The position numbers and the translations under genes were made by a program. A DNA stretch of 64,000 nucleotides from an uncultured Chitinophagaceae bacterium. GTDB taxonomy: Bacteria > Bacteroidota > Ignavibacteria > UBA10030 > UBA8401. The notes under the pieces were generated by a model that made no database searches, was not told where the DNA came from, and was given only the letters and a program-made list of their open reading frames with translations. Of this stretch, positions 15,429 through 34,109 are shown in pieces. The stretch covers positions 6,840-70,839 of the forward strand of contig CAYLMV010000003.1 in the NCBI GenBank assembly GCA_964384415.1, read 5' to 3'. Every line of letters starts with the position of its first letter. Within the stretch, counting starts at the first letter, position 1.

Positions 15429-15445
15429 GACCGTCCTCCTCGCTA

Positions 15446-15785: not shown

Positions 15786-16049
15786 TCAGAGCCACACGTC
15801 CGTCGCCGAATCTTCCATCATCGGCGATGTCTTGGGATGCTTCGCCTCGTCCAGCACCGCGGCAACGCCCTCCATGCGCGTATGCGCCTCCATCACCTTT
15901 CCGCGCACCTTGTCAAAATCCAGCGGGAAATGCGGATGGTCGCGGTACCAGTCGAGAACCTTCTCCATCTCCACCGTCAACACAAAGACCTGGTTGCATT
16001 CTTTTGCAACCCAGTCAAATTTTTCTTTTGAGATCTGAACACAATTCAT
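15786..16049 (-). CDS. Hypothetical small protein
   Basis: 87-aa ORF co-oriented with its neighbours. No motif recognised. Confidence 0.3.
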   Translation of the reverse strand: MNCVQISKEKFDWVAKECNQVFVLTVEMEKVLDWYRDHPHFPLDFDKVRGKVMEAHTRMEGVAAVLDEAKHPKTSPMMEDSATDVWL

Positions 16050-16081
16050 TGTCGAATTCCTTCATGGTCGTACAGTAAAAC

Positions 16082-17395: not shown

Positions 17396-17404
17396 AGTTC
17401 CCGT

Positions 17405-18910: not shown

Positions 18911-21142
18911 TCATGCCTCTTGTTTGCGGCGAAGCATGGAAATGATGAGTCCAAGAAACAACAGTATCGCACCCGACCAGACCAAATTCATGAACGGCTT
19001 AATGCTCGCTTCAACCATCAGCACTTCTCTCGGAGACGATTGTGAGTTTGGGCGAAGCACCTCGAGAGTCACCGTCGACTGATCGGAGCCCATTTGAACA
19101 TTCATACTCACCAGTTGTATCTTCGCCCCAAGGAGCTTCGACTCCGCCGGTTGATACGTCGTCCCGCCTTGTTGATCGTACACTGCAACCGGAGTTACCG
19201 TTTCCTTCCCCTGCGATGATGAGAGCGCCAGCACGGATCCAACCTGTACTCCGCCTCCTCCCGTCATCGCCTCCATCCCGTGCTTCCCCATGTCGAATTC
19301 CACGAACTTCGTCTGCACTCCCTGTATGTCGACGGTCTCTCCCTTCTTAATCGACACTCGCTCGCCGGCTTCTCCATTCGATCCGCCCGATTGTTCGAGC
19401 GAAACCGGAGACAGGTAAAGATCCCGTGTGATGAACGATTTGATATCGGGATTCCGCATGAGTCCCTGCTCACCCATGTCGGACATCACCGGAGAGAGTC
19501 TGAACTTTGCGCCGTCCCTTTCTGCATCCACATCGAAGGCGAACTTTTTTCCCCCTACAGGCCTGTTGCCCGTGTAGGTAAGATTGTAGCCGAAAACTTG
19601 CTGCGGCGAATTGAGCGTGAGGGCAACCTGCTGTTTGTGGCCGTACTTTCCCGATGCAAGAACCCCGAGGAAAAAGAGAGCCAATCCAATGTGGGCAATT
19701 TTGCCCCCCATCCATCGCGGGTCTCCCTTCGCGGTGACATACGCCATTTCGATATTGACAAAGAGCGCGAACGATGACGCGAACCCAAACAGAAGCATCA
19801 TAATATCATTAGCGCCGAGCTTAAACATGACGGCGGCAACGACAAGAGAAGCGGCGATCCATTTCAGAGACCTGCGAAAAGCGTGCGAACCCTCCTCGTT
19901 TTCCCATCGGAGAAGAAGGCTGTAGCCGATCAAAAGAGAAATGGCCACGGCGATGGGGAGGTTCATTGTATCGTAGAACGAACCCTCGACATTGGTTTTC
20001 GAGAAAAGGGGGAGACTCGTCCCGAACAAAACCACGGCCGATGAAGCCAGCAATGCGAACGATCCGAGGCTCGCCACAAAACCGCGTGAACGATATTTAA
20101 GGGGAGCCGGGTTGAGCCGAAGCCCGCGCCATCGGCTAAAGAACACTCCGAACCCGACAATCGCGAAGACTCCGAGAAAGGCAAGCAACAGAGAATAGAC
20201 CGCAGCGCCGGGGTCTGAAAACGAGTGGACGGATGAATCGCCAAGAACACCGCTCCTGGTAAGGAATGTGCTGTAGACGACCAAGAGGAATGCAAGGATC
20301 GCGAGGACAAAGTTCGTTCGAACAAGATTTCCGGTTCGCTTCTGTATCAACATCGTGTGCACGAGCGCCATCAGGACAAGCCATGGCACCAGCGACGAGT
20401 TTTCCACCGGATCCCAACCCCAGTATCCGCCCCATCCGAGGACACCGTACGCCCAATAAGCCCCGAGCATGATACCGAGCCCGAGAATCATGCCAGCGAA
20501 GAGAACCCAGGGGAAGGCGCTGCTCAGCCACTCGGTAAAATCCTTGCGCCACAACGCCGCTACCGCAAAACTGAACGGCACTGCCGTAACCGCAAAGCCG
20601 ATGAAGAGTACCGGAGGGTGGATAACCATCCAGAAATTCTGGAGAAGAGGATTGAGGCCTTTGCCGTCAAGCGGAACTTGGCCTGCCTGCATCTGTCCGG
20701 GAAAAGAATCCCATACGGTCCTGAACGGCGATTTGAAAAGGAGAAGCAGGACAAGAAACGTCTGTATCGAAACAAAAACGGCGAGGACGTGCGCCTCGAG
20801 TTTTCTCGACTTGGTGTAGTTCAAAAGGAAGAAACTCATGATGGCGGAACAGAAAGACCAGAAGAGAAAGCTTCCCTCCTGTCCTGCGTAGAATGTCGAG
20901 ACGAGATAATAAAGGGGCAGCGAGCGGTCGCTGTAGCTCCACACATACGCGAAGGAAAAATCGTGCAGAAGAATGCTCGACATCAGCAGCGCGCATGCTG
21001 CGATAACGCTTCCCCCGCTGAGGTAGAGAGCGTTTCTTCCGAGCTTTAAACGATCATGAACGCCGGAAGCAGTCTGATAGTACGACCACACCGCTACAAG
21101 ACCGCTCGCCAACGCTACTATGAGAACTGCCGTACCCGCCAT
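18911..21142 (-). CDS. ccmF: Cytochrome c-type biogenesis protein CcmF (system I haem lyase)
   Basis: 743 aa and polytopic. It carries the WWD-type motif WGGYWGWDPVENSSL and the conserved His residues of CcmF/NrfE. Confidence 0.85.
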   Translation of the reverse strand: MAGTAVLIVALASGLVAVWSYYQTASGVHDRLKLGRNALYLSGGSVIAACALLMSSILLHDFSFAYVWSYSDRSLPLYYLVSTFYAGQEGSFLFWSFCSAIMSFFLLNYTKSRKLEAHVLAVFVSIQTFLVLLLLFKSPFRTVWDSFPGQMQAGQVPLDGKGLNPLLQNFWMVIHPPVLFIGFAVTAVPFSFAVAALWRKDFTEWLSSAFPWVLFAGMILGLGIMLGAYWAYGVLGWGGYWGWDPVENSSLVPWLVLMALVHTMLIQKRTGNLVRTNFVLAILAFLLVVYSTFLTRSGVLGDSSVHSFSDPGAAVYSLLLAFLGVFAIVGFGVFFSRWRGLRLNPAPLKYRSRGFVASLGSFALLASSAVVLFGTSLPLFSKTNVEGSFYDTMNLPIAVAISLLIGYSLLLRWENEEGSHAFRRSLKWIAASLVVAAVMFKLGANDIMMLLFGFASSFALFVNIEMAYVTAKGDPRWMGGKIAHIGLALFFLGVLASGKYGHKQQVALTLNSPQQVFGYNLTYTGNRPVGGKKFAFDVDAERDGAKFRLSPVMSDMGEQGLMRNPDIKSFITRDLYLSPVSLEQSGGSNGEAGERVSIKKGETVDIQGVQTKFVEFDMGKHGMEAMTGGGGVQVGSVLALSSSQGKETVTPVAVYDQQGGTTYQPAESKLLGAKIQLVSMNVQMGSDQSTVTLEVLRPNSQSSPREVLMVEASIKPFMNLVWSGAILLFLGLIISMLRRKQEA

Positions 21143-21163: not shown

Positions 21164-22441
21164 CTAGAAACTTCTTTCAGTCCCACCCACGTCGATTTTT
21201 CCGTTAATATGTTTCGTCGCATCTATGATGTTGCCATTCGCGTCAACAATTCCCTGATGACAACCTCCCACGCCGCCGCATGAGCTCAGGGGCAGTGGTC
21301 CCAAATGGCCCTTCGGAGGAAGTCCATGACACGATCCGCATGCTGCTTCGCCCATCCCGCCGGTCCACATTGGAGAATAGTTGTTTCCAGTCATAACAGA
21401 GTCAACAAACATTACTTGATCTTGCGGTGATGCTCCCGCTTTTGTCACCTGCCAATTTCCGTGACAATACGTATTGCTGCACTGAGTCGCGCTGGCATTG
21501 TATGACGGATTCGGAACGAACGTGCCGGCAGCGGTGACCAGGTTCGCAAGAGTGTCGCCCATAATAACTGTCGCCGGTCCGCTGTTCAAATGGCCTGCGG
21601 CAAACACTTGGGCCGGAACGTTATGGCATTCCTGGCATTTCAATACTTTGCCGAACGTCGACCGCAAGTGTCCCTGGTGAGCGCCGACTCCTCTCAAGCT
21701 TGTGGACGAGTCGCCAGTGATACTCCTCGGAGGCGCCCAGGACGCGATGTCGTTCGCAGCTCCCGTGAAGTTACCATGACACGTGTTGCACGCTTCGGGA
21801 GATTTTTGATTTCCCTTCGCATCCACGTGGCAGCCCGAAGTCATGCAGCCGATGTTGCTTCCCGTCGGGATCCCATTGTAATTTGTGCCGTGGCATGTCT
21901 TGCATCCATCCATATTCCAATTACTCGCCATGATTTCAGCCCCGTGAAATGCCGCCGACGTCGGCTGAGTCCAACCGCTGGCGTGCGGATAAGCGTTATG
22001 GCATGTGTAGCAACTTACGCCGCTCGTGCCTCCCTGGAAATTCTGAGCATGGCAGGTCTGGCATGACTGCAGGTTGAAGCCGACTGTCTTTAACGCAACA
22101 CCATGGAAATTTGCCGCCGTCGTATCGAGCCACCCTGTCTGGTGAGGATACTGCGTATGACACTTGAAACAGCTGACACCGCTCGTTCCCCCCTGATACG
22201 TCGGTGCGTGACATTGCTGGCAATTCTTTGCGTTGAAGCTCACGCTCTTTAAATACGCGCCATGGAAATCTGTGGAGAGGCTGTCATCCCAACCTGTGCC
22301 ATGCACGGAAAGCGCCGGACCGGTGGGTGTCAAACCGTCCTTGTTCTTTAAATCACTGCACCCTGTGACCGCCAAGGCGAGCAGAAGAATGGAAGCTCCG
22401 AAGTACAAATGTGTTTTCATAGTTCGCTCATTTCTTTCCAT
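21164..22441 (-). CDS. Multihaem cytochrome c lipoprotein with three internal repeats
   Basis: Lipobox LLALAVTGCSD. At least 8 CxxCH motifs plus atypical CMTSGCH, CSNTYCH and CGGVGGCH. A ~45-aa unit (FHGAxLK...NCQQCHA...GGTSGVSCFKCH) repeats three times. An alternative start lies at 22420. Confidence 0.8.
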   Translation of the reverse strand: MERNERTMKTHLYFGASILLLALAVTGCSDLKNKDGLTPTGPALSVHGTGWDDSLSTDFHGAYLKSVSFNAKNCQQCHAPTYQGGTSGVSCFKCHTQYPHQTGWLDTTAANFHGVALKTVGFNLQSCQTCHAQNFQGGTSGVSCYTCHNAYPHASGWTQPTSAAFHGAEIMASNWNMDGCKTCHGTNYNGIPTGSNIGCMTSGCHVDAKGNQKSPEACNTCHGNFTGAANDIASWAPPRSITGDSSTSLRGVGAHQGHLRSTFGKVLKCQECHNVPAQVFAAGHLNSGPATVIMGDTLANLVTAAGTFVPNPSYNASATQCSNTYCHGNWQVTKAGASPQDQVMFVDSVMTGNNYSPMWTGGMGEAACGSCHGLPPKGHLGPLPLSSCGGVGGCHQGIVDANGNIIDATKHINGKIDVGGTERSF

Positions 22442-23645
22442 GACAGTACCCGCAGAAACCTATGCCCGCAACTCCCCCCATGGTATGAGGCTTCGCATTG
22501 GGGTCGGTATGGCACGCAAAGCATGTTGCCCCGGGATCGGTCATCCAGTTGCCGTCGACATTGGCCATGAACCCGCTTGGATGCGTCCTGGGGTTAGTAC
22601 CTTTCACGCCGTCCGGATCTACGTGGCACTTCATGCACGTCGGATCGGCTCCTTCAACATCATGACAAGATTGACAACTCTCAATTTCTCTTCGTGCGAG
22701 GCGGGCATGCTCGCCGCCGCCAGACCCGACACCGATGGTCACAAATCCGGCCGCTTCGTGTGATGTAGGAATTACTCCGCCCAGGGCCGCACTGCCGTTC
22801 TGGTGGCAGTCGTTGCAGAACGCCTGTTCGTGATGGCACACCTGGCAATCGGCAGCGTGTCCCCGCGCTTCGATGCCATGGGTGAAGCGGAAATTCATGT
22901 CGTGCACTGCCTGTCCCTTGAGCGCCTGCGACTTGTCGTTCCCCATTGTGCGCGGGGAGATCATTCCGATCATCTCTTTGCTCGACAGCGCCGTGAGATT
23001 CGATCCGTCGTGGCACTGCGCGCAATAGTTCTCACTGTGGCACATCGAACACTGAGAATCCATGGCGTTCAACCTAGCAAGCGTCGAATGCCCCTTTAGC
23101 CAGTTGCCCTGGTTATGAGAGGCCGGCCGTAACGTCGCAAGGTTGGTATGGCAGGTCTCGCATTGATTGGATTCCTTCGTGTTGTTGTGGCACGTATTGC
23201 AGGTGGCCATTGCCGGCATATTGGCGGCCGTCGCATAGTCAACTTTATCGACACCGGCATGGCACGTCGCGCATTCCATCTTCCCGTCCGTCACGTGTTT
23301 CTTATGATTGAACCGAACCTCGCGGGCTTCGCGCGGGAACGGCACGGGATTCTTTTCGTCGGAATGGCAATAGCCGCACGTCTTGGCCACTTGCTCCTCG
23401 TGGCAAGTCTGGCAGACGGCATGTCCCGGAATCATCTTGTCGGAAGACGATTCGCTCGTCGCCGACTCTGCATGACACGTAGCGCACTCCACGCCCAACT
23501 CGGCAACATGCTTTTGGTGAGAAAACTTTATCACTTTATCCTGATCGACCGATTTCTGAGTGCCATCTGCCGACCAGCTCCCGCCCAGGGCAACGATGAA
23601 CGTCGCCGCAAGAAACAATCCAAACGTAAGAATTTTGATTCTCAT
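22428..23645 (-). CDS. Periplasmic multihaem cytochrome c (14 CxxCH)
   Basis: Signal peptide followed by 14 CxxCH motifs counted in the 405-aa translation. Confidence 0.85.
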   Translation of the reverse strand: MRIKILTFGLFLAATFIVALGGSWSADGTQKSVDQDKVIKFSHQKHVAELGVECATCHAESATSESSSDKMIPGHAVCQTCHEEQVAKTCGYCHSDEKNPVPFPREAREVRFNHKKHVTDGKMECATCHAGVDKVDYATAANMPAMATCNTCHNNTKESNQCETCHTNLATLRPASHNQGNWLKGHSTLARLNAMDSQCSMCHSENYCAQCHDGSNLTALSSKEMIGMISPRTMGNDKSQALKGQAVHDMNFRFTHGIEARGHAADCQVCHHEQAFCNDCHQNGSAALGGVIPTSHEAAGFVTIGVGSGGGEHARLARREIESCQSCHDVEGADPTCMKCHVDPDGVKGTNPRTHPSGFMANVDGNWMTDPGATCFACHTDPNAKPHTMGGVAGIGFCGYCHGKK

Positions 23646-23654: not shown

Positions 23655-24938
23655 TTAAAACCAGCTGAGATGATCACTGAACCAGTAGTTTACTTTTGCG
23701 AAGACCCGCACGTCGTTTGAGTAGAGCGGATTGTGCATCCATTGCAGCTGCAAATCGGTCGACAAGAGCGGAGACGGACGGTATGTCGCTCCGATACTGC
23801 CGTTGATAACCGTATTCTTCGGAGCGTTGTCGGACAACTGGTAGCTTGCGTACCCGAACCCGAGGTTTGGTACTATTTGCCGGTTCATCATTGGATACAC
23901 TGCTTGCACGGAAACACCGTTGAGATCCCCGGCATATCCGAAATTCTTTGTGTACGAGATGTTGACAATATCGTATGTGCCGCCGACCGTCAACCGCTGA
24001 CTGTTGTCGTCGGTGTACTGAACATCCGCAAAACGCGCGAAAGTGCGGAAGAGCGGAGAGAATTCATATTCAAGTCCTCCTTCAACCTCCTGCGTACTGC
24101 TCGTGTTGAAGACCGAGAAGATCGAGTTATAGGCAACGCGCGGCTCGCGGAAAAGATAGTCGACCGTGGCGGTCAGCGAAGTCATGATGCCGGCTCGGGC
24201 TTCCGCTTGCGCGCGGGAGATTCGTTCGAAGTTGAAATCGTAATCGGACCTCCCGTAGAGATCGATTTTATTAAGGAGACTGTAGCGGGCGTCGAAGCTT
24301 GCGTATTCTTCTTCGTCGGGAGAATAGGCGATGACCACCACATAGGGATTGAACAGCGAGTCGGCGCGGACCGCCGTGAACGGCTCCGGTTTCCGCGTCC
24401 GGTTCATGAAGCTGAGTCCGACGACAGCATTCTCCGCAGGCTCGTAGGTCAGTTGTCCGCCGTAGAGAGAGTTGTCCGCAAAATCTCTTTTCAAGATGAT
24501 ATCCCGAGACTGGATGACATTGTATCCGCCGTATGCGGTCAGCCCCAGCCGTTTGTCGAAGAGCATCACCTTTGCCACACCGCCATCCATCAATCCATTG
24601 CCCACCCCCGCAAAAACGTATTGGCGGCCCACGGTAACATCCGCAACGTCGGCGATCCCTCGCGCTCCGACGGTCAATGATGAGAGACGCAGCTCCGGAT
24701 CCGTGCCGATGGTGGTACCGAAATCTTTGGAGTACTGGAAATTTGTGTTGAAGGCAAAATGCGGCTGAGCAACATTGAACTGGACGTTTTCAAAACCTCG
24801 CATGTAATTCTGGTTGTCCAGGTCGGCGCTTCGCCCCTGCCATCCATAGAACGACGTCGTGAATCGCCCCGACATGAACTGCGCCGAGGCCGTCGCTGCC
24901 ATGAGAAGAATACAGAAGAGTAGTATTGTATATTTCAT
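23655..24938 (-). CDS. Outer-membrane beta-barrel protein (porin-like)
   Basis: Signal peptide MKYTILLFCILLMAATASAQ, alternating amphipathic beta-strands rich in Y/G/N, and a C-terminal aromatic residue (...HLSWF). Confidence 0.65.
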   Translation of the reverse strand: MKYTILLFCILLMAATASAQFMSGRFTTSFYGWQGRSADLDNQNYMRGFENVQFNVAQPHFAFNTNFQYSKDFGTTIGTDPELRLSSLTVGARGIADVADVTVGRQYVFAGVGNGLMDGGVAKVMLFDKRLGLTAYGGYNVIQSRDIILKRDFADNSLYGGQLTYEPAENAVVGLSFMNRTRKPEPFTAVRADSLFNPYVVVIAYSPDEEEYASFDARYSLLNKIDLYGRSDYDFNFERISRAQAEARAGIMTSLTATVDYLFREPRVAYNSIFSVFNTSSTQEVEGGLEYEFSPLFRTFARFADVQYTDDNSQRLTVGGTYDIVNISYTKNFGYAGDLNGVSVQAVYPMMNRQIVPNLGFGYASYQLSDNAPKNTVINGSIGATYRPSPLLSTDLQLQWMHNPLYSNDVRVFAKVNYWFSDHLSWF

Positions 24939-25078: not shown

Positions 25079-25096
25079 ATTCCATAAAATAGGAAT
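25079..25096. promoter_or_regulatory. Palindromic motif ATTCC-ataaaata-GGAAT upstream of the porin/cytochrome operon
   Basis: Read directly, ~140 bp upstream of the porin start. A near-identical TTCC-N9-GGAAT element lies at 33038-33056. Confidence 0.35.
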
Positions 25097-25230
25097 CCCG
25101 CCTCATCAGGATGATGAAGCGGGATTGGTTGCGGTCTGGAGGCTTTGCCGAGCCTCGTGGGATAGACGCCAGCATGTAGGGTGCCGGCGGGGGAAGTATC
25201 GCTCCCGTGAGGAAGCGAATACTGTCGTTG

Positions 25231-25767
25231 TTACTTAGCTGCGATGGGATGCTTGATCTTGTCCCACGCTTCTTTGTACTTAAATTCCTTGTATGTTGGA
25301 CTCTTGCTGTTGTGACATTTAACACAAAGCTTCGGATCGTCTGCCGCCAGAACCAGGCCTGCGGCTTCCGCCTTTGCCTTGTCTTTCATGACCGGGATCG
25401 ACTTATAATCGGACCCGGGACCATGGCATGTTTCGCACTGGACACCATCTTCCTGCTTCAATGCACCGCTGATCGCTTTATCAGCACCGTATCCTGTCAC
25501 ATGGCACTCGAGACATTCGGGAGATTCCGCAGCCTTCGTCTTGAGTCCCTTTCCCTTCGCTATCTCATCTGCCTTCGGAGTCTGAAGCGTCTTGAATGCA
25601 CTTGCGTGTGCCGAACCTTTCCAGATATCGAATTGCTTTCCTGCTTTTTCGGTCTTATGGCAGACCGAACACATCGTCACTCCAACATACTTGTGCTGCG
25701 CCATCGTGGGTAACGCGACGCATAGCACGAGCGTCAGAACAATTGCACTCTCCACTAGTCGTTTCAT
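25231..25767 (-). CDS. Periplasmic tetrahaem cytochrome c
   Basis: 178 aa with a signal peptide and 4 CxxCH motifs (CSVCH, CLECH, CETCH, CVKCH). Confidence 0.8.
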   Translation of the reverse strand: MKRLVESAIVLTLVLCVALPTMAQHKYVGVTMCSVCHKTEKAGKQFDIWKGSAHASAFKTLQTPKADEIAKGKGLKTKAAESPECLECHVTGYGADKAISGALKQEDGVQCETCHGPGSDYKSIPVMKDKAKAEAAGLVLAADDPKLCVKCHNSKSPTYKEFKYKEAWDKIKHPIAAK

Positions 25768-26046: not shown

Positions 26047-27525
26047 TTACTTGTTCGCATGCTGTTTTCTCTCTATCCGTCTGATCAGCAGATACAGTGA
26101 CGTTGCTAAAATGGTTATGATGATCGTCGCAACGCCTAAACCAATTCGTCTGAAGTAATACTCGTCTATGGCTGATTGACCTTCGCCTGAGACGAGCACG
26201 GCAACGGCGAGCCCCTTATGCACAACGTCGCCGAATTTCTGTTCGTTGAAAGAGTGGACCATGGTCCGCGATTGCAGCCGAGCCTGCCTCACATCACGAA
26301 GCTTGAACTTCGCCTCCGAAATTTCCATCCCCTTCTGTTCGGCTTCGTCGACAAGGTTTCGTCCTTTTAGCTCCGCATCCTTAAGGCTGTCGGCGAGCTG
26401 CCGCATGGCAAGAGCGACTTTGTAACCGAGCGAATTATCGTCCCCTTTGTGGCACTTACCACACAATGCGCCTGGAGCAACTCCGAGGAGGCTATCAGTC
26501 GCAGCGAGGATTTCATGGTTGCCGTGGCATGTTTCGCACTCAGGCAGCTTACGATCGTCGAACGCTTTCTTGTGCGGACTCGATGAGAACAGGTCCGCGT
26601 TCAATGCATGGCAGGTCCCGCATACTTTGGAAACCGACTCAACTCCCGGAGGCGCGGCTCCGTGATTTCCGTGGCAGCTGTTGCATGCGGGAGCGGAGAC
26701 ATCATTTTTCTGAAGAAGTGCAATGCCGTGTACGCTGCGGGCAAATTTGACATACTGGTCGGATGGAATTCCGTATTTCTTCATCAAATCGGAATCACTG
26801 TGGCAATGGGCGCACGTCGACGGGATGTTGGTAGGATATACTTTTGACTTCAAGTCGGCCGCCGAGCGTATATCATGACTGCCGTGGCAGCTTGCGCATT
26901 CTGCGGTATGCGCGTCACCCTTGGCATTCCGCATTCCGTGAACACTCGTCTTGTACTTATCCAGCTGGTCGACTGCAATCGAAGGGTTATAGGTCCTCAT
27001 GTATGTTGCGTTCGCATGACATTTCGTGCATGTCTTGACCACGTTGAGCGGATAGACCGGAGAGGCAGCATCTTTCACGTGAACAATCCCGTGCGCCGAG
27101 TGACAGGTGATACACTGGACAATGTGTTCTCTCCCGTTCGTTGCGAGCTTGCCGTGAACGCTCGTCTGAAGGTCTTCCCACTGGTTCGTCGGGAGCTGCG
27201 AACCGTACCGCCTCATCGCTTCCCCATCCGCATGACAGCTTGCGCACATCTTCGAAATTTCATCGCCCTTGGGAACGCCGATGAATCCTTCCTTCTTGCT
27301 CATGGCGACTTCGGCATCATCGGATTTGGAATTCCCTCCGTGACAATCTGCACACGACAATCCCTTCGCTGCATGCACATCGTGCTTGAACATTTTCGAC
27401 GGAGCATCTTCCATCGCCTCATGGCATGTCACGCACTGGTCTCCGGCGAATAGCCTCGGCTGCGATGCAATGATGATCGCCGAGATCGGAATGAGCAGAG
27501 AAAGTTGAAGTCTCATGAGGCCCAT
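26047..27525 (-). CDS. Multihaem cytochrome c (11 CxxCH) with C-terminal TM anchor; subunit of the Rieske/cyt b complex
   Basis: 11 CxxCH motifs, an N-terminal signal peptide and a C-terminal hydrophobic helix ([18 protein letters not shown]). Its start overlaps the cyt b stop. Confidence 0.8.
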
Positions 27526-28592
27526 CCGATGATGGTGAGAAGAATAATGTAGAAGACGACAAACATTCCGATGTACGTTATGAAGCGGTTCTTCTCGCCC
27601 CGCGCGCTCTTCCTGTCCCAGAACGGAACGAGCATCCAGAGGAAGCCTGCAAGTCCGAAGAGCAGGATTCCGAACACTTCGCCGTCGATGAACCCCAATT
27701 TAGCGGGGATCATTTTGAGGGATTGAAACATAAAGAGGAAGTACCACTCCGGTCGTATGCCGGCAGGAGCCGCTGCAAACGCATCAGCTTTCTTCCCCAA
27801 TTCCCAGGGGAAAAATACTGCAAGGATGGCGAGAAGATTCAGAACGATGAGCCACAGAAGCAGATCACGGAGTACGAAATTCGGAAAGAAGGGCATCGTC
27901 TTCGGCGGTACGCCAGTCTGGGTTTCGGACGATTGCGGTTCGCTCATCCCCTGTCGTTGGATGAGCAACAAATGGATTCCGAGAAGGACGGTGAAAATCC
28001 CCGGAAAGACTGCTACGTGAAATCCGAAGAACCGCGAGAGGGTTGCGCCGGTAACTTCTTCGCCGCCGCGAAGGAACATCATGATCGGTTTTCCGACCAC
28101 AGGAACAACTCCGGCGATGTCGGTGCCGACCTTCGTCGCAAAATATGCCAGCTCGTTCCACGGCAAAAGATAGCCGCTGAACCCAAATCCGAGCATCAGG
28201 AAAAACATCAGCATCCCGGTAAGCCAAGTGAGCTCGCGCGGTTTCCGGTACGACTTCTCGAAAAAAACGCTGAACATGTGAATCATCGCCGTCAGGATAA
28301 AGAGGTTGGCCGTCCAGCTGTGGATGGACCGGATCAGCCATCCAAACTGCACTTTCGACATGATGAACTGGATGCTTTCAAACGCAAACTCCTCGCTTCC
28401 TTTGTAATACATCAGCAGCATTATTCCCGTAACAACCTGGATGATGAAAAGGAAGAGCGAAACGCCGCCAAAATAATACCAAATAGAGTGGCGGTGTACC
28501 GGCACGTATTTCTTTCCCATAAACTTAACGAGGTCGTCCAGCATGACCCGTTCATTGATCCAATCGTAGAGAGCCGTTAATCTTTTCTTCAT
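27513..28592 (-). CDS. Cytochrome b (bc/b6-type, fused cyt b + subunit IV)
   Basis: 359 aa and polytopic with cyt b signatures ([25 protein letters not shown]). A 4-bp overlap with the Rieske gene stop indicates translational coupling. Confidence 0.85.
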
Positions 28593-29044
28593 GATTTTTT
28601 CGATATAAAGACATCTCCCCCTTGAACGTTGACTTTGTACTCTTCAAGCGGCCGGGGAGGCGGACCGGAAACGTTCCTGCCGTTGAAATCGTACTTCCCG
28701 TTGTGACAGGCGCACCAGATCAGCCCGTAGTCTTTGCGGTATTGTACCGTACAATCGAGGTGTGTGCATGTTGCCGAGAATGCTCTCAGCTCATCCTTCG
28801 CGGTGCGCAGAAGAATCACCGGTTTCGTTCCAAACTTGATGATCGTTCCGCTGTCCTTGGGGATGTCGGTCAGCTTGCCGGCCTTCACGCTGGAAACTTC
28901 GGCTTCTGCCTGGGTCGGCGGCTTCAGGTATGCGAGAACGGGATAAAGGATGGCGCCAATCCAGGCCAGGAGACTTCCGCCGAGGACGAACTTCAGGAAA
29001 TCTCTCTTATTCTGTTTCAGGTCAACAGGAGGATGTTCGGTCAT
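28589..29044 (-). CDS. Rieske [2Fe-2S] iron-sulfur protein
   Basis: CTHLDC...CACHNG Rieske boxes and an N-terminal TM/Tat-like anchor. Confidence 0.85.
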
Positions 29045-29080
29045 GTCCCAGCCGCAATAATGATGGGAGTTCGTGAAGGA

Positions 29081-30565
29081 TCAGGAACCGCTGTGGCAAT
29101 CGCTGCAATTCATCTGCTTCCACGCATCGCCGACGTCGACAGGGTGCTTGTACTCGATGCCGGTGAGAGATATTCTAAGGCTGTCTTTCTCGAGCTTCTG
29201 AGCAAGAATCACGTGGCAGGTATTGCAGTCTCTCGACAGGACTTTCCCGTCGTCGCCGACATGCTTGCCGTCGTGACAGCGAAAACATCCCGCAGAATAC
29301 AAGTGACCGATGTTGTTCGGATAATGTTTCCACGAAACATTCATCTCGGGGAAGAAATTCTCGCCGTAGATTCGTTTCACGTGTTCGATGGCTGTATCAA
29401 TGCCGGCCGCCATCGTGCGGGAAATCTCGGGATAGCGCTGCGCGTAGAAATCGCGGATGGTGAAGCCGATGCTGTCCATCGCCCCCGCTTCTGTACCGTA
29501 CGGCCTCGTCAGCGCGTCGACGGCCGTCGCCTTGATGGAAGGAAGTGCGGGATCAATCCAACCCAGCGTCATTGCCTGGTTCACCGATTCGTTTGGCGGA
29601 TGATAGATGTGCGTCGGCCGGTTGTGGCAGTCGATGCAATCCATCCGCCGTTTTTCGCCTGCGGCGATCTGTGCGTCGGTCGCAGAGCCGTCGTTCATCG
29701 TATAGGTCACAACAGTCCCGTCGGGCCGCTTCGACTGGACCCACGGAATCACCTGGCGCTGCGAATCAATCGCAACGTAGGTGATTTTGTTGCTGATGTT
29801 CATGTGCCAATGAATGCCGGAGGTCGGACCCGTCTCGCTGTTTCCTCCGCCGATCTTCATCAGGAGCGAAATCCACCATTGAGTATTCTTTTCATCGGAA
29901 AGGAAATAGTTCTTGACCACCTGTTTTTCCGAATAAAATTGTTTCGGCCAGTGGCATCGTTCACAGGTCTCCTGAGCCGGACGAAGGTTTCGTACCGGCG
30001 TTTCGATGGGACGCGAATACTTATGGAAGATCACCGAATAGACCTGATATGCTCCGGACAATTTCGATTTGACGTACCAGTCGGCACCGGAGCCGACGTG
30101 ACATTCAGCGCAAGAGACTCTCGCATGGGGAGAGTAAAGATAAGCGGTGTATTCGGGCTTCATAACGCTGTGACAAACCTCGCCGCAGAACTGAACCGAC
30201 TCCGTGAATTCATACGCTTGATAGCTTCCAAACGCGGAACACATGAGGAGCACCAGGACAAGAGATCCGAAAAAGAGGAACATCGACCGCTGATGCGGGT
30301 CGTTAAGATCGATGCGGGGAAATCGGTTCGCCGTCGTTTGAACCCGTCTCCGCTCGAGAATGACGCCGACAATAGCGATCGCCAATCCCATAAGAAGAAA
30401 GCCGGGAAGAATGACGAAAGCTATGATTCCCATGTACGGGCTTTGGCGTCCGGCGAAGGCTTCCAGGAGAAAGAGGAACAGGATCAGCCCAAAGCTGACG
30501 AGCGCAATTCCTGCGCCGGCAAAACTCGTAGGGTTAAAAAAAGATTTTGGAACAAGCCTTTTCAT
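29081..30565 (-). CDS. Inner-membrane NapC/NirT-type multihaem cytochrome (7 CxxCH, 3 N-terminal TM helices; ImcH-like architecture)
   Basis: 494 aa with three hydrophobic helices in the first ~110 aa and then 7 CxxCH motifs. It lies 36 bp upstream of the Rieske gene. Confidence 0.7.
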   Translation of the reverse strand: MKRLVPKSFFNPTSFAGAGIALVSFGLILFLFLLEAFAGRQSPYMGIIAFVILPGFLLMGLAIAIVGVILERRRVQTTANRFPRIDLNDPHQRSMFLFFGSLVLVLLMCSAFGSYQAYEFTESVQFCGEVCHSVMKPEYTAYLYSPHARVSCAECHVGSGADWYVKSKLSGAYQVYSVIFHKYSRPIETPVRNLRPAQETCERCHWPKQFYSEKQVVKNYFLSDEKNTQWWISLLMKIGGGNSETGPTSGIHWHMNISNKITYVAIDSQRQVIPWVQSKRPDGTVVTYTMNDGSATDAQIAAGEKRRMDCIDCHNRPTHIYHPPNESVNQAMTLGWIDPALPSIKATAVDALTRPYGTEAGAMDSIGFTIRDFYAQRYPEISRTMAAGIDTAIEHVKRIYGENFFPEMNVSWKHYPNNIGHLYSAGCFRCHDGKHVGDDGKVLSRDCNTCHVILAQKLEKDSLRISLTGIEYKHPVDVGDAWKQMNCSDCHSGS

Positions 30566-30642: not shown

Positions 30643-30718
30643 GTTGTTGTCAGTTGTCAGTTGTCAGTTGTTAGTTTTTGGTTGTTGGTTGTTCATTGTT
30701 GATTGTTCATTGTTGATC
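30643..30718. repeat. Tandem repeat tract: (GTTGTCA)x3-4, GGTTGTT x2 and a 14-bp direct duplication GTTCATTGTTGAT(T/C) overlapping the CbcL-like stop codon
   Basis: Read directly: gttgtcagttgtcagttgtcagttgttagtttttggttgttggttgttcattgttgattgttcattgttgatcc. Confidence 0.7.
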
Positions 30719-32881
30719 CTTCTGCGTCGACCGGTCCCGATTAATGTCTTCCATCAACTTTCGCACTTCCTCCGCCTTGATCCGCTGCAATTCCAGCGGG
30801 TGTTCGTCGTGCATTTCTTCCTCTGTGATCGTCCCTTTGAAGAAGGCAAGGTTGATCGGATACACATCCGGATTGAAAATCACAAAATAGAAGTGCCATA
30901 TAATAATAGAGAGCGTCGCGAGCCAGGCTTCATAATAATGGACGGTGCCTGCAACATCCCACCAGAGCTTGCCTATAATTCCAAGAAATCTGTTGTCAAA
31001 CCAGAGAATGAAGCCCGTCGCTCCCATCACGATCGTCCCCCACACCAGCGCCCAGTACTCGCTCTTCTCCACATAGCTGAACCGGTCGAACTGCGGTCTG
31101 ACCTTGCTCAATCCGATATTGTACTTCGCAACTGCGATGGCGTCGTGAAGGTCTTTCAATTTCGGCAGTAAGTCATGGACGAGCTGTTTTCCCCTGGGGA
31201 CAAACAGCACATAATAGATGTGGTAAAGACCCGCCGCGATCAGGACCAGGCCGGCGGCGCGATGAAGGAGGCTTCGAATGCCGAATACCGCGGGGCTGAG
31301 CGAGCGGATCGGGCCGACCCACCACGCATCCGGGAACTTCAGCATGAAGCCTGTTATCACGAGCGTCGTGAAGCTGATGATCAACGTGCCATGTTGCAGC
31401 CGTTCGCTCAACGTCATCCGGACATACAGTGAATGGCCGAGTTCTTCTTCATAGAGCGTTCCCCGGCGTACTCGCAGCTTCCTTTTGGATTTCTTTACGA
31501 AGTCCAGGGCATTGTGAATGAACATTCCGCCGATCGTGATGACGATGAGGAGGATATATCCGGATGTTACATAATAGAGCATATCGTTGTCTTTGGCTGA
31601 GACGATGATATGCACCGAGCCCTTCGTGAAATTCTCGTTCGCTCCCGGGTGACATTTTCCGCATGTCACTGCAAGGTTGGCCTTATTCACCCTCGATTTG
31701 GGATTGCTCGACGGCAGGATATCATGGATCCCGTGACAACTCGCGCAGTTGGCGACTTCCACGCTTCCGGCTTTCGTCGCAAGACCGTGATAGCTATCGT
31801 CAAAACTTTTTCCGCGCTCCGCTGCAAGGCCGAATTTTTCGTTCAGCCGCACCGAGTTGTGGCACGGCGAACAGACCTGGGCAGATACATGAAGCCTTGA
31901 AACGGGCGAGTTCGGGTCCTTGGGCGCGAGAATCTTGTGCTCTCCGTGGCAATCGGTGCACACGGGCGCGTCTTTATTGCCGGCGAAGAACGCAGAGCCG
32001 TGAATGCTTCCTCTGTATTCCGTTGCAATCGAAGCATGACATTTCGCGCATGTGTTGGGAATATTCAGCCTGTTCACCCGCGATGTCGGGTCTCCCCCCT
32101 TCTTCATCTCGTGGCTCCCGTGGCAATCGACGCAATTGGCCGCTCTTCCATTCCCGCCCTTCAGGGCAACGCCGTGCACGCTTTGTTCATACGACAGGAC
32201 GAAGCTCGCTGTGGGGGCATCGGCCGGCGTCTGTTTGTTCTTCACATGACAGGTGATGCATACCTGCTCCTGCGCGATCTTCAGCTGCGCGGAATCGGTC
32301 CCCGCTTTGACTGCGGTGATATTCTTGGAATGGCAGGCAACGCATGTCGGGGCGTTGAGGTTTCCGGCGAAAAGAGATTTTCCATGAGCCGACGTCAGGT
32401 ATTTCTCTTTCTCAGCCGTGTGGCATTGGCCGCAGCTCTGCACAACGTTTGAAGAATTGAATTTTGTGCCGGGCGTTTTCGGGGACTGGACGTCGTGTTT
32501 TCCGTGACACTCCTTGCACATCTGGCTCTCGTTCCTGCCCGCCTGCAGAAGCAGCGTACTATGGAATGGATGCTTCGGTTCTACATTCTTATGGCATGTT
32601 TCGCACTGGACGGGAGTGATATGTTCCTTGTGCGGCACATTCCCGGGATCAAAACCCGTGTGGCAGGCGACGCAGACCAGTTTCTTGTGCGTCGAATGAC
32701 TCAGAACTTCATCGTTCACGAACAATGAAACAGTCTTTCCGTTGCGCTCGGTAGACAATGTGCTGTCGGAGTGGCAGGCTAAACACTCTTCTTTCGTCTG
32801 CGATCTCAGCAGCGAGGACGAAGCAAGGAGTAGGAGAAAGAGAATCAGAGATTGGAAGAAAAGAGTTCGGGTCTTAAGCAT
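30707..32881 (-). CDS. Fusion of a multihaem cytochrome c (13 CxxCH) with a C-terminal dihaem cytochrome b-type membrane domain (CbcL-like)
   Basis: 724 aa. A signal peptide is followed by 13 CxxCH motifs. The C-terminal ~270 aa has 5 TM helices with conserved His in TM1, TM2, TM3 and TM5, an FdnI/HydC-like arrangement. Confidence 0.75.
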   Translation of the reverse strand: MLKTRTLFFQSLILFLLLLASSSLLRSQTKEECLACHSDSTLSTERNGKTVSLFVNDEVLSHSTHKKLVCVACHTGFDPGNVPHKEHITPVQCETCHKNVEPKHPFHSTLLLQAGRNESQMCKECHGKHDVQSPKTPGTKFNSSNVVQSCGQCHTAEKEKYLTSAHGKSLFAGNLNAPTCVACHSKNITAVKAGTDSAQLKIAQEQVCITCHVKNKQTPADAPTASFVLSYEQSVHGVALKGGNGRAANCVDCHGSHEMKKGGDPTSRVNRLNIPNTCAKCHASIATEYRGSIHGSAFFAGNKDAPVCTDCHGEHKILAPKDPNSPVSRLHVSAQVCSPCHNSVRLNEKFGLAAERGKSFDDSYHGLATKAGSVEVANCASCHGIHDILPSSNPKSRVNKANLAVTCGKCHPGANENFTKGSVHIIVSAKDNDMLYYVTSGYILLIVITIGGMFIHNALDFVKKSKRKLRVRRGTLYEEELGHSLYVRMTLSERLQHGTLIISFTTLVITGFMLKFPDAWWVGPIRSLSPAVFGIRSLLHRAAGLVLIAAGLYHIYYVLFVPRGKQLVHDLLPKLKDLHDAIAVAKYNIGLSKVRPQFDRFSYVEKSEYWALVWGTIVMGATGFILWFDNRFLGIIGKLWWDVAGTVHYYEAWLATLSIIIWHFYFVIFNPDVYPINLAFFKGTITEEEMHDEHPLELQRIKAEEVRKLMEDINRDRSTQKDQQ

Positions 32882-34106: not shown

Positions 34107-34109
34107 CCT

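What the first reader, a model, noticed from the sequence alone, without database searches (positions are those of the whole stretch)
26047..30565. Unusual Rieske/cytochrome b operon carrying an 11-haem C-anchored cytochrome and an ImcH-like 7-haem NapC-type cytochrome
The gene order is 7-haem 3-TM cytochrome, then Rieske, then cyt b (fused b + subunit IV), then 11-haem cytochrome. Overlapping start/stop codons between Rieske/cyt b and cyt b/11-haem cytochrome imply a single complex. Canonical bc1/b6f complexes use a mono-haem c1 or f. A bc complex with an 11-haem subunit and a NapC/NirT-family partner is a non-standard quinol-oxidising module. The 494-aa 7-haem protein matches the architecture reported for Geobacter ImcH (NapC/NirT-like, ~3 TM, 7 haems).
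Basis: partly seen in the sequence, partly recalled or inferred. Interest (0 to 1): 0.6.

Follow-up and report, generated by a model that had tools for sequence, protein, structure and literature searches.

The report
Rieske/cytochrome b complex with 11-haem subunit
An uncultured Ignavibacteria-like bacterium encodes a quinol-oxidising Rieske/cytochrome b complex whose usual one-haem partner is replaced by a membrane-anchored 11-haem cytochrome, set inside a gene island for exporting electrons to minerals; this is a widespread but unstudied variant of a known kind of respiratory enzyme.

Summary
On the minus strand, 26047-30565 holds four genes:
- a 494-aa ImcH-type cytochrome (3 TM, one CX3CH and six CXXCH motifs);
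- a Rieske protein;
- a cytochrome b (b6 and subunit IV fused, PEWY motif, no haem-ci cysteine);
- a 492-aa cytochrome with 11 CXXCH motifs and a C-terminal anchor.

Both junctions of the last three genes overlap. Rieske-cyt b-11-haem is a conserved unit: the order holds in 74 of 74 species-level genomes with enough flank (cyt b intact in 73), and 57 of 58 of the cytochromes scored have 11 haem motifs. Natural cyt b::multihaem fusion proteins exist among relatives.

The ImcH-like gene lies directly upstream in only 34 of 64 loci. Geobacter ImcH works as an autonomous quinol oxidase, so this gene is more likely a linked parallel module than a subunit.

A CbcL-like 13-haem/dihaem-b fusion lies upstream. 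Downstream are a c554-like tetrahaem, a putative outer-membrane barrel, 14- and 8-haem cytochromes, and a CcmF-like lyase.

Precedents exist (Geobacter Cbc6/Ext, anammox Rieske/cyt b complexes), so this is a new variant of a known kind. Function is inferred, not shown.

The parts
30707..32881 (-). CbcL/MtoC/MtrH-type fusion, outside the finding's coordinates. It has 13 CXXCH haem motifs, a TM segment and a HydC/FdnI-type dihaem cytochrome b domain. It is a linked, probably independent quinol oxidase.
   Evidence: Ni_hydr_CYTB scores 49.7 bits (cut-off 30.1) at residues 488-671; 13 CXXCH and about 5 TM segments; a CbcL-like gene (>45% identity) is in 26 of the related loci. The architecture matches the family described in PMC6295460.
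29081..30565 (-). ImcH-type inner-membrane cytochrome. It has 3 TM segments, an atypical CX3CH next to TM3, six CXXCH motifs and a NapC/NirT-like N-terminal region.
   Evidence: features. Searches give the family definition and the Ignavibacteria homologues with the same layout. The gap to the Rieske gene is 36 bp.
28589..29044 (-). Rieske [2Fe-2S] subunit with an N-terminal TM anchor, a KR Tat-like motif and cluster boxes CTHLDC / CACHNG.
   Evidence: best solved relative is 8hn2_A, deposited as a cytochrome b6-f complex iron-sulfur subunit (E 5e-19), followed by 9rk4/9rk3. KR in 30 and RR in 28 of 61 family members.
27513..28592 (-). Cytochrome b with the b6-like four-helix part fused to a subunit-IV-like part. 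The four haem-ligand His residues and the PEWY Qo motif are present. The haem ci/cn cysteine is replaced by Tyr (YFGG).
   Evidence: PEWY in 65 of 70 and YFGG in 62 of 70 family members.
26047..27525 (-). 11-haem c-type cytochrome with a signal peptide, a three-helix C-terminal stalk and a C-terminal TM anchor. It is the proposed c-subunit replacing c1/f. The likely true start is the ATG at 27516.
   Evidence: fusions with cyt b. AF2 model, pLDDT 85.7; junction overlaps.
25231..25767 (-). c554-like tetrahaem cytochrome with a signal peptide. It is a candidate periplasmic acceptor or shuttle.
   Evidence: PF13435 at 74.6 bits; four CXXCH; a homologue occurs in 33 of 80 loci, typically just downstream of the 11-haem gene (median offset +1456 bp).
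25094..25126 (-). Terminator-like hairpin (15-pair stem plus T-rich tail) after the c554-like gene. No such site follows the 11-haem gene on this strand.
   Evidence: This is a consensus match only, not proof of termination.
23655..24938 (-). 427-aa protein with no Pfam or NCBIfam hit. It is a putative outer-membrane beta-barrel (the porin of a porin-cytochrome conduit).
   Evidence: no hits; signal peptide, C-terminal SWF, aromatic-rich, and 10 amphipathic beta-like segments against 3.2 +/- 1.7 in shuffles; homologue in 24 of 80 loci. The AF2 single-sequence model failed, so the fold is inferred.
22428..23645 (-). 14-haem cytochrome with a signal peptide, the putative periplasmic component of the conduit.
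   Evidence: family in 21 of 80 loci.
21164..22441 (-). Cytochrome with 8 CXXCH and 2 CX4CH motifs, a lipobox (LAVTGC) and the Geobacter CxxxxCH domain. It is the putative outer-surface lipoprotein cytochrome.
   Evidence: (TIGR01904 at 35.6 bits, cut-off 27).
18911..21142 (-). CcmF/NrfE-family haem lyase-like membrane protein ending the cluster.
   Evidence: TIGR00353 at 262.7 bits, below its 569-bit cut-off; family in 16 of 80 loci.

Best explanation
The Rieske, cytochrome b and 11-haem genes encode one membrane complex, a menaquinol:multihaem-cytochrome-c oxidoreductase of the Rieske/cyt b superfamily.

Proposed mechanism (all steps inferred):
- Menaquinol is oxidised at a PEWY-type Qo site.
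- One electron passes through the Rieske cluster into the membrane-proximal end of the 11-haem chain. That chain is held by a C-terminal TM helix, as in c1 and f.
- The other electron returns through haems bL and bH to a Qi site. This is a Q cycle, so the step builds proton-motive force.
- The haem chain releases electrons into the periplasm.

In this genome the likely onward route is the c554-like tetrahaem and then the barrel, 14-haem and lipoprotein-cytochrome conduit encoded downstream. That would mean reduction of extracellular Fe(III), Mn(IV), humics or electrodes.

The adjacent ImcH-like and CbcL-like genes most likely encode separate, parallel quinol oxidases. By analogy with Geobacter they would serve acceptors of different redox potential and are not subunits.

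What is shown: gene anatomy, cofactor motifs, conserved synteny and gene fusions. What is inferred: physical assembly, direction of electron flow, Q-cycle operation and the extracellular acceptor.
For: Motifs and anatomy:
- Four b-haem His ligands are conserved against spinach b6. PEWY is present and the Rieske boxes are intact.
- The cytochrome has 11 CXXCH motifs and a C-terminal TM.

Synteny and coupling:
- Rieske plus cyt b lie directly upstream of the multihaem gene in 73 of 74 species genomes. The 74th (L081) has the same order with a deleted cyt b.
- The overlap lengths are conserved: -4 bp in 31 of 57 loci and -13 bp in 33 of 58.
- 57 of 58 cyt b-adjacent homologues have 11 haem motifs.

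Fusions and relatives:
- Six of the 150 cluster representatives of the multihaem family match the window's cyt b or its subunit-IV part. Four matches are strong (P0305, P0314, P0362, P0257) and two are weak and partial (P0269, P0333).
- A nonahaem relative also follows Rieske and cyt b with overlapping junctions (L083).

Absence of the usual partner: no c1/f-like or other c-type cytochrome lies outside the 21-33 kb cluster in this window.

Electron-export context:
- ImcH-like and CbcL-like genes lie upstream. A barrel, a 14-haem cytochrome and a lipoprotein cytochrome lie downstream.
- The same downstream families occur in 21-33 of 80 loci.
- Porin-cytochrome clusters and anode enrichment are reported for Ignavibacteria (PMC7399161).

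Homology of the haem domain: it aligns with the CbcL-like electron-transfer domain at 27% identity, E 2e-30. The Geobacter CbcL haem domain donates electrons to periplasmic PpcA (PMC9129911).
Against: - No expression, protein or activity data exist. All organisms carrying the cluster are uncultured MAGs.
- Thermodynamics are unresolved. A Q cycle needs a high-potential acceptor chain above menaquinol. Bis-His multihaem domains such as CbcL's are low-potential (Eapp -194 mV). Only 10 conserved non-motif His are available for 11 haems, so one haem may have a different ligand, but its potential is unknown.
- The export link is not universal. The porin-cytochrome genes accompany the triad in fewer than half of the loci. 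In 31 of 80 loci a DUF2339 membrane protein is the neighbour. In 5-7 loci a molybdopterin oxidoreductase cluster is nearby. The core complex may therefore serve several acceptors.
- The outer-membrane barrel is inferred from sequence statistics only, because the structure model failed.
- Promoter scans were uninformative.
Confidence: 0.6

Rival explanations
1. General periplasmic electron hub. The Rieske/cyt b/11-haem complex is the organism's ordinary complex III equivalent. It supplies electrons to whatever periplasmic reductases or oxidases are present (cbb3/caa3 oxidases, nitrite, N2O, arsenate or other molybdoenzymes). The mineral-respiration genes are merely neighbours in this genome.
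For: Neighbour content varies. The porin-cytochrome genes occur in only 21-33 of 80 loci. DUF2339 is the neighbour in 31 loci. A molybdopterin oxidoreductase with class-I cytochrome c genes lies downstream in 5-7 loci. An NrfC/NrfD-like pair is inserted in 6 loci. In Caldithrix, a Rieske/cyt b pair inside a Nap/epsilon-Hao cluster has been proposed to serve nitrate and nitrite reduction (PMC5317091).
Against: In this window every c-type cytochrome gene belongs to one 12-kb cluster with ImcH-like, CbcL-like and porin-cytochrome-like genes. No terminal reductase or oxidase gene was seen among the window ORFs scanned.
Confidence: 0.25
2. Inward electron flow. The cluster takes up electrons from Fe(II), a cathode or a syntrophic partner. 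The Rieske/cyt b complex then runs in reverse (pmf-driven uphill transfer to menaquinone), or passes electrons downhill to an oxidase.
For: CbcL/MtoC/MtrH homologues occur in both metal reducers and metal oxidisers (PMC6295460). Nothing in the sequence fixes the direction of electron flow.
Against: ImcH homologues have so far been implicated only in quinol oxidation. The window encodes a heterotroph-type central metabolism next to the cluster: PFOR, GAPDH, PGK and an acetyl-CoA hydrolase/transferase family protein. No carbon-fixation or Cyc2-type gene was seen in the window.
Confidence: 0.1
3. Four-subunit complex. The ImcH-like cytochrome is a structural subunit of the Rieske/cyt b complex, which is the first reader's 'NapC/NirT-family partner' reading.
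For: The ImcH-like gene lies directly upstream of Rieske on the same strand in 34 of 64 loci. Gaps are short, with a median of about 14 bp and 36 bp in this window.
Against: It is absent within 10 kb in 24 of 64 loci. It is displaced by inserted genes or lies downstream in others. No ImcH::cyt b or ImcH::multihaem fusion was found among 150 family representatives. Geobacter ImcH is monocistronic and functions alone. Its junction with Rieske almost never overlaps (1 of 24), unlike the junctions within the triad.
Confidence: 0.1
4. Catalytic subunit. The 11-haem protein is an HAO/NrfA-type multihaem enzyme fed by quinol through Rieske/cyt b, reducing for example nitrite, NO or hydroxylamine. This would resemble the HAO-like subunit proposed for the anammox Kuste4569-4574 complex.
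For: The best fold matches are Kuenenia and Brocadia HAO/HDH octahaem proteins (Foldseek probability 1.0, about 410 aligned columns). There are local Pfam and PDB sequence matches to NrfA, and some homologues are auto-named 'nitrite reductase c552'. One haem lacks a conserved distal His.
Against: The fold match is weak (E 5e-3, TM 0.36-0.39). The NrfA sequence match covers only about 60 residues. There is no CXXCK motif. The protein is built from repeated dihaem units shared with the CbcL-like electron-transfer domain.
Confidence: 0.05

Closest known systems
Geobacter sulfurreducens Cbc6 / ExtKLMNOPQS cluster (GSU2930-2937)
   Same: It pairs a Rieske protein (ExtO) and a b6-like cytochrome b (ExtP) with large multihaem cytochromes (12-haem ExtM, 10-haem ExtN). 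It sits beside a porin-like gene in an electron-exporting bacterium. It has been proposed as an inner-membrane quinol oxidase of unknown role (PMC2825233, PMC5877670, PMC13591261). The window's cyt b scores 213.5 bits on the ExtP model.
   Different: The ExtP score is below the 290-bit equivalog cut-off. ExtP (23.2 kDa) and the membrane protein ExtQ (16.8 kDa) are separate genes, whereas here the b6-like and subunit-IV-like parts are one 359-aa protein. The gene names run ExtM, N, O, P, so the multihaem genes appear to come before Rieske there, while here one 11-haem gene follows cyt b. The Ext cluster also includes a selenocysteine cytochrome ExtKL and a rhodanese ExtH. Homology between ExtM/ExtN and the 11-haem protein could not be tested because no Geobacter sequences were available.
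Anammox (Kuenenia stuttgartiensis) Rieske/cyt b complexes Kustd1480-1485 and Kuste4569-4574
   Same: These are b6-type Rieske/cyt b complexes in which cytochrome f is replaced by TM-anchored hexa- or octahaem cytochromes. One complex has an added HAO-like octahaem protein (PMC12954380). Solved Rieske chains 9rk4 and 9rk3, which I take to be the Kuenenia proteins of that paper, are the 2nd and 3rd closest solved Rieske relatives. The 11-haem model's best fold hits are Kuenenia HAO-family proteins.
   Different: The anammox complexes have split b6 and subunit IV and a haem cN site. They also carry a putative NAD(P) oxidoreductase subunit. None of these features is present here. The haem counts and the organisms differ.
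Green sulfur bacterial (Chlorobi-type) Rieske/cyt b complex
   Same: It has a long, fused cytochrome b with PEWY and with the GG, but not the Cys, of the CxGG motif (PMC5600118 and PMC4122944). The closest solved Rieske relative (8hn2_A, E 5e-19) is, I believe, the Chlorobaculum tepidum protein described in PMC10172866, but I did not confirm the entry's organism. It is a menaquinol-based system in a sister lineage of Ignavibacteria.
   Different: Green sulfur bacteria use a mono-haem cytochrome c-556 that donates directly to the photosynthetic reaction centre (PMC10172866 abstract). Here the partner is an 11-haem, C-anchored cytochrome in a non-phototroph. No phylogeny was computed.
Geobacter ImcH (GSU3259) and CbcL (GSU0274)
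   Same: The 494-aa protein has the ImcH architecture (3 TM, CX3CH, six CXXCH, NapC/NirT-like region). The 724-aa protein has the CbcL architecture (multihaem c domain fused to a HydC/FdnI-type dihaem b). Homologues of both families were already reported in Ignavibacteriae (PMC4251993, PMC6295460).
   Different: In Geobacter both genes stand alone. Here they are clustered with each other and with a Rieske/cyt b operon. The CbcL-like protein has 13 haem motifs rather than 9. Sequence identity to the Geobacter proteins was not measured.

Membership tests
Rieske/cytochrome b complex superfamily (bc1 / b6f / bc-type) | Rieske protein with both [2Fe-2S] binding boxes (C-x-H-x-x-C and C-x-C-H) | tested here: met
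   CTHLDC and CACHNG are present. PF00355 scores 46.7 bits (cut-off 20.3).
Rieske/cytochrome b complex superfamily (bc1 / b6f / bc-type) | Cytochrome b with the four conserved His ligands of haems bL and bH, and a Qo (PEWY-type) motif | tested here: met
   All four His align with spinach b6. PEWY is present in the window ('RPEWYF') and in 65 of 70 family members.
Rieske/cytochrome b complex superfamily (bc1 / b6f / bc-type) | Rieske and cyt b genes adjacent and co-oriented | tested here: met
   4-bp ATGA overlap. Conserved in 73 of 74 loci.
Rieske/cytochrome b complex superfamily (bc1 / b6f / bc-type) | Physical assembly with a c-type cytochrome subunit that accepts electrons from the Rieske cluster | not testable with these tools
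   Only indirect support exists: synteny, overlapping junctions and cyt b::multihaem fusions. No multimer modelling or biochemistry was available.
Canonical cytochrome bc1 | Mono-haem cytochrome c1 subunit encoded with Rieske and cyt b | tested here: not met
   The gene after cyt b has 11 CXXCH motifs. No other c-type cytochrome ORF lies outside the cluster in the 64-kb window. The rest of the genome was not available.
Cytochrome b6f | Split cytochrome b6 and subunit IV, a covalent haem ci/cn cysteine, and cytochrome f | tested here: not met
   b6 and subunit IV are fused in one 359-aa ORF. The Cys35 equivalent is Tyr (YFGG in 62 of 70 members). There is no cytochrome f. The b6 NCBIfam model scores 241 bits, below its 325-bit cut-off.
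ImcH family (494-aa protein) | Three N-terminal TM helices | tested here: met
   Hydropathy segments at 12-40, 41-73 and 92-115. The criterion comes from PMC6295460.
ImcH family (494-aa protein) | [quoted passage not shown] | tested here: met
   CGEVCH at residue 127, and CXXCH at 152, 201, 310, 427, 447 and 487. The spacing is the same as in the listed Ignavibacteria homologue PIP78050.1 (129, 153, 202, 311, 428, 448, 488).
ImcH family (494-aa protein) | NapC/NirT/NrfH-like region | tested here: met
   PF03264 scores 37.2 bits (cut-off 24.1). NrfH TIGR03153 scores 48 bits. PDB NrfH 2j7a_C matches at E 2e-4.
ImcH family (494-aa protein) | Sequence identity to G. sulfurreducens ImcH in the published range (31.5-49% for non-Geobacter homologues) | not tested
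ImcH family (494-aa protein) | Required for reduction of high-potential extracellular acceptors | not testable with these tools
   This is a genetic and physiological criterion (PMC4251993).
CbcL/MtoC/MtrH family (724-aa protein) | Periplasmic multihaem c domain fused to a HydC/FdnI-type dihaem b membrane domain | tested here: met
   13 CXXCH motifs. PF01292 scores 49.7 bits (cut-off 30.1) at residues 488-671. About 5 TM segments.
NrfA / cytochrome c552 nitrite reductase (name given to some homologues of the 11-haem protein) | CXXCK catalytic haem and a full-length match to the NrfA fold | tested here: not met
   No CXXCK. The Pfam match covers residues 44-106 only, at 24.5 bits. The profile-versus-PDB match is about 60 residues long. 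The NrfA NCBIfam model scores 22.8 bits against a 595-bit cut-off.
HAO-type octahaem cytochrome family | Octahaem core fold with C-terminal helices and a catalytic five-coordinate haem | tested here: inconclusive
Geobacter ExtP (Cbc6) cytochrome b equivalog | Score above the NCBIfam NF040969 cut-off | tested here: not met
   213.5 bits against a cut-off of 290.
Porin-cytochrome (Pcc-type) outer-membrane conduit (downstream genes) | Adjacent genes for an outer-membrane beta-barrel, a periplasmic multihaem cytochrome and an outer-surface lipoprotein cytochrome | tested here: inconclusive
   The 14-haem secreted protein and the 8-haem lipobox protein are clear. The barrel is supported only by a signal peptide, a C-terminal Phe and beta-amphipathic statistics. 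The AF2 model failed at pLDDT 29.9, and there is no family hit.

The most novel reading that the evidence does not exclude
An uncharacterised, widespread Rieske/cyt b complex exists in the Ignavibacteria, Kryptoniota and related (FCB-group) lineages. Relatives of its multihaem subunit were found in at least 593 species-level genomes. In it, a 9-11-haem membrane-anchored 'wire' replaces cytochrome c1/f. This makes mineral or electrode respiration Q-cycle-coupled, and therefore proton-motive, at the quinol-oxidation step. The complex is co-encoded with an electroneutral ImcH-type oxidase and a CbcL-type oxidase. One gene island would then hold three alternative exits from the menaquinone pool, with different energy yields for acceptors of different potential.
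Probability: 0.3. Interest if true: 0.7.

Novelty: new variant of a known kind. Interest (0 to 1): 0.5.

Why it matters
How electrons leave the quinone pool during extracellular electron transfer, and whether that step conserves energy, is well studied only in Geobacter and Shewanella. Their characterised quinol oxidases (ImcH, CymA) are electroneutral. The role of the Geobacter Rieske/cyt b cluster (Cbc6) is still unknown.

This locus shows that a large group of uncultured soil, peat, sediment and groundwater bacteria carries a conserved Rieske/cyt b complex with its own multihaem subunit. It is often placed next to ImcH-like, CbcL-like and porin-cytochrome genes.

If the complex runs a Q cycle into a haem wire, it would be an energy-conserving exit for mineral respiration. 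It would also be a natural test case for how bifurcating Qo chemistry copes with multihaem acceptor chains, a question shared with the anammox complexes.

On the practical side, current automatic names for these proteins are uninformative or misleading. Examples are 'cytochrome c3 family protein' and 'nitrite reductase c552'.

Tried and rejected
A 16-sequence alignment (A2) worked.
- The third protein search, on the nonahaem relative P0243, mostly returned the same 11-haem family and gave little new taxonomic breadth. One short contig (L083) did confirm the Rieske/cyt b context.
- Single-sequence AF2 of the 427-aa putative barrel gave pLDDT 29.9 and is uninformative. A PDB sequence search found nothing.
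- Sigma-70-type promoter scans and the Bacteroidetes -7 motif TAnnTTTG were at chance level and say nothing about operon boundaries.
- The G. sulfurreducens ImcH, CbcL and ExtM/N/P sequences could not be retrieved, so no direct identities or phylogeny were computed.
- I rejected filing the 11-haem protein as NrfA/c552. It has no CXXCK motif and only a 60-residue local match.
- I rejected filing the complex as b6f. The cytochrome b is fused, there is no haem-ci cysteine and there is no cytochrome f.
- I rejected the ExtP equivalog assignment because the score is below the cut-off.
- Literature searches found no description of this Ignavibacteria-type Rieske/cyt b/11-haem unit. The library is not exhaustive.

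Full report
**Observation**

The transcription order and spacing are:

| Order | Protein | Coordinates | Junction with next gene |
|---|---|---|---|
| 1 | 494-aa cytochrome | 29081-30565 | 36-bp gap |
| 2 | 151-aa Rieske protein | 28589-29044 | 4-bp ATGA overlap |
| 3 | 359-aa cytochrome b | 27513-28592 | overlap |
| 4 | 492-aa cytochrome | 26047-27525 | - |

The last overlap is 13 bp from the first ATG. It is a 4-bp ATGA from the second ATG. That second ATG encodes the Met that is nearly invariant in homologues.

A motif and hydropathy count gave the following.
- The 492-aa protein has 11 CXXCH motifs, a signal-like N-terminus and one C-terminal TM at residues 460-484.
- The 494-aa protein has three TM segments, one CX3CH (CGEVCH at 127) and six CXXCH motifs.

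Pfam and NCBIfam agree. They find Rieske (PF00355), cytochrome b N- and C-terminal domains in one chain (PF00033 and PF00032), and a NapC/NirT N-terminal region in the 494-aa protein (37.2 bits, cut-off 24.1).

**The cytochrome b and Rieske proteins**

- Against solved structures, the cytochrome b is closest to cytochrome b6 of b6f complexes (E 2e-58). Long bc1-type cytochromes b come next.
- The alignment to spinach b6 shows all four haem-ligand histidines conserved. The cysteine that binds haem ci/cn is replaced by tyrosine.
- The Qo motif is PEWY. Across the related loci, PEWY occurs in 65 of 70 copies and 'YFGG' in 62 of 70.
- A long cytochrome b with PEWY, and with the two glycines but not the cysteine of CxGG, is how the literature describes the green-sulfur-bacterial type (PMC5600118, PMC4122944).
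- The closest solved Rieske protein is 8hn2_A, deposited as a b6-f iron-sulfur subunit. I take it to be the Chlorobaculum tepidum protein of PMC10172866, but did not confirm this. Next are 9rk4 and 9rk3, which I take to be the two Kuenenia Rieske proteins of PMC12954380.
- The cytochrome b scores below the curated cut-offs for both 'cytochrome b6' (241 of 325 bits) and Geobacter 'ExtP' (213.5 of 290 bits).

I computed no phylogeny.

**Is the 11-haem cytochrome a subunit?**

The protein belongs to a large family. More than 7000 database proteins match, and the best 120 are at least 65% identical. Where named, they come from Bacteroidota or Ignavibacteria MAGs.

An exhaustive search of 50%-identity cluster representatives found 546 clusters at E <= 1e-30. 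Most are 9-haem, C-anchored proteins of about 420 aa that match residues 160-488 of the query.

A scan of one genome per species found at least 593 genomes with relatives. The 80 best loci are all MAGs labelled Ignavibacteria, Bacteroidota, Kryptoniota, Chlorobiota or Eisenbacteria.

The evidence for a conserved unit is as follows.
- In 73 of 74 loci with enough upstream DNA, Rieske and cytochrome b genes lie directly upstream on the same strand.
- The one exception (L081) has the same order with an internally deleted cytochrome b.
- The overlap lengths seen in the window recur: -4 bp in 31 of 57 loci and -13 bp in 33 of 58.
- 57 of 58 cyt b-adjacent homologues have 11 haem motifs.
- Six of the 150 family representatives match the window's cytochrome b or its subunit-IV part. 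P0305, P0314, P0362 and P0257 match strongly; P0269 and P0333 match weakly and only in part.
- A nonahaem relative also follows Rieske and cytochrome b with overlapping junctions (L083).

Together this is strong comparative evidence that the multihaem protein takes the place of cytochrome c1/f. It is not proof of assembly.

**Anatomy of the 11-haem protein**

- An AlphaFold2 model built on 49 homologues is confident (mean pLDDT 85.7). It ends in three long helices (365-397, 403-425, 428-491), the last containing the TM anchor.
- The sequence consists of four repeated dihaem units of the form CXXCH ... (S)VHG ... CXXCH-G-x-H, plus two N-terminal haems and one C-terminal haem.
- The alignment shows 10 conserved non-motif histidines for 11 haems, and several invariant methionines. 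One N-terminal haem may therefore have a non-His distal ligand. This is inference only.
- The haem domain is homologous to that of the neighbouring CbcL-like protein (27% identity, E 2e-30).
- Foldseek's best solved matches are anammox HAO, HOX and HDH octahaem proteins, but weakly (E 5e-3, TM 0.36-0.39).
- Sequence similarity to NrfA is limited to about 60 residues, and there is no CXXCK motif. The database name 'nitrite reductase c552' given to some homologues is not justified.

**The ImcH-like protein**

The family is defined in the literature by four features (PMC4251993, PMC6295460):
- three N-terminal TM helices;
- an atypical CX3CH motif next to them;
- five to nine CX2CH motifs;
- NapC/NirT homology.

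All four are met. The motif and TM coordinates match those tabulated for Ignavibacteria ImcH homologues almost residue for residue. I could not measure identity to Geobacter ImcH.

Linkage to the triad is frequent but not obligatory:
- directly upstream in 34 of 64 loci;
- somewhere in the locus in 40 of 64;
- separated from Rieske by an inserted NrfC/NrfD-like gene pair in six loci;
- located elsewhere in the genome in a MAG already listed as having an ImcH homologue (L018).

Purified Geobacter ImcH is an autonomous, electroneutral menaquinol oxidase (bioRxiv 10.1101/2023.05.03.539133). I therefore read it as a linked parallel module rather than a subunit.

- Upstream, after a 141-bp gap, lies a 724-aa fusion of 13 c-type haem motifs with a HydC/FdnI-type dihaem b domain. 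This is the CbcL/MtoC/MtrH architecture.
- Downstream of the 11-haem gene, after 279 bp, lies a c554-like tetrahaem gene followed by a strong terminator-like hairpin.
- Next come a 427-aa protein without family hits, a 14-haem cytochrome, a lipoprotein cytochrome with 8 CXXCH and 2 CX4CH motifs, and a CcmF/NrfE-like protein.
- The 427-aa protein looks like an outer-membrane barrel. It has a signal peptide, a C-terminal Phe, and beta-amphipathic segments about 4 sd above shuffles.
- Every c-type cytochrome ORF of the 64-kb window is in this 12-kb cluster.
- The same downstream families accompany the triad in 21-33 of the 80 loci. Other loci instead carry a DUF2339 membrane protein (31 loci) or a molybdopterin oxidoreductase cluster (5-7 loci).
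- Porin-cytochrome clusters and anode enrichment have been reported for Ignavibacteria (PMC7399161).

**Mechanism**

The best-supported reading is a Rieske/cyt b-type menaquinol oxidase. Its high-potential branch is an 11-haem, membrane-anchored chain that delivers electrons to the periplasm. In this genome the onward route is probably the c554-like protein and the putative outer-membrane conduit.

ImcH-like and CbcL-like proteins would be alternative exits from the quinone pool. This mirrors the potential-dependent branching known in Geobacter (PMC5322298 abstract; PMC13591261).

The main unresolved point is energetic. A Q cycle needs an acceptor chain above the quinol potential, whereas the homologous CbcL haem domain is low-potential (-194 mV). 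The same problem is discussed for the anammox complexes.

The rivals are a general periplasmic hub, inward electron flow, a four-subunit complex including ImcH, and a catalytic HAO-like subunit. They are weighed in the structured fields.

**Comparison and novelty**

Rieske/cyt b gene clusters with multihaem cytochromes are known in Geobacter (Cbc6/ExtKLMNOPQS, function still unknown). They are also known in anammox bacteria, where TM-anchored hexa- and octahaem subunits replace cytochrome f.

This locus differs in four ways:
- a fused, Chlorobi-like cytochrome b without a haem-ci site;
- a single conserved 11-haem subunit of a different, uncharacterised family;
- its lineage (Ignavibacteria and related FCB-group lineages);
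- clustering with ImcH-like and CbcL-like genes.

Six literature searches found no description of this unit. I rate it a new variant of a known kind, of moderate interest. All functional statements remain inference from sequence.

Noticed in passing
window 51954-58688 (-): Three large ORFs (641, 920 and 606 aa) have no Pfam hit at E <= 1e-5. They lie in a stretch of lower GC (0.456-0.465 at 52-56 kb, against about 0.52-0.54 elsewhere). This may be an acquired island.
   Followed up: no
window 33180-35636 (+): Divergent from the CbcL-like gene are a DUF362 protein (308 aa) and a 508-aa membrane polyferredoxin with Fer4_5 and several 4Fe-4S dicluster domains. The pair could be another membrane redox module.
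   Followed up: no
L030-L082 (31 of 80 loci), e.g. L033:11502-13169, L037:6669-8363: A DUF2339 membrane protein of about 550 aa lies immediately next to the Rieske/cyt b/11-haem triad in 31 of 80 species genomes. It is absent from this window. Its function is unknown, and it may be an accessory component.
   Followed up: partly
L005:6343-8297, also L014, L016, L019, L043, L049: An NrfC-like 4Fe-4S protein and an NrfD-like membrane protein are inserted between the ImcH-like and Rieske genes. This would be a fourth kind of quinol-interacting module in the same island.
   Followed up: partly
L031:4145-8718, also L034, L043, L049, L054: Downstream of the triad are a class-I-type cytochrome c protein with 4 CXXCH motifs, a pentahaem c7-like protein and a molybdopterin oxidoreductase (831 aa). 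In these genomes the complex may feed a periplasmic molybdoenzyme.
   Followed up: partly
proteins P0255, P0289, P0298 (relatives of the 11-haem subunit): Some nonahaem relatives carry one or two TerB domains after the haem region, apparently where the C-terminal tail would be. This is an unexplained fusion.
   Followed up: no
L081:9381-9990: In one Kryptoniota MAG the cytochrome b gene of the triad has an internal deletion that leaves two fragments. It is either a pseudogene or an assembly error.
   Followed up: yes
window 36710-37933 and 41702-42610 (-): Molybdenum-cofactor biosynthesis genes (MoeA, and a MoaC-MoaB fusion) lie a few kb from the cytochrome island, although no molybdoenzyme was seen in the window.
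   Followed up: no
window 6131-18547 (-): Central-metabolism genes flank the island: PGK, GAPDH, a 1253-aa PFOR, an acetyl-CoA hydrolase/transferase family protein and an alanine dehydrogenase family protein. This is consistent with an anaerobic organoheterotroph.
   Followed up: no
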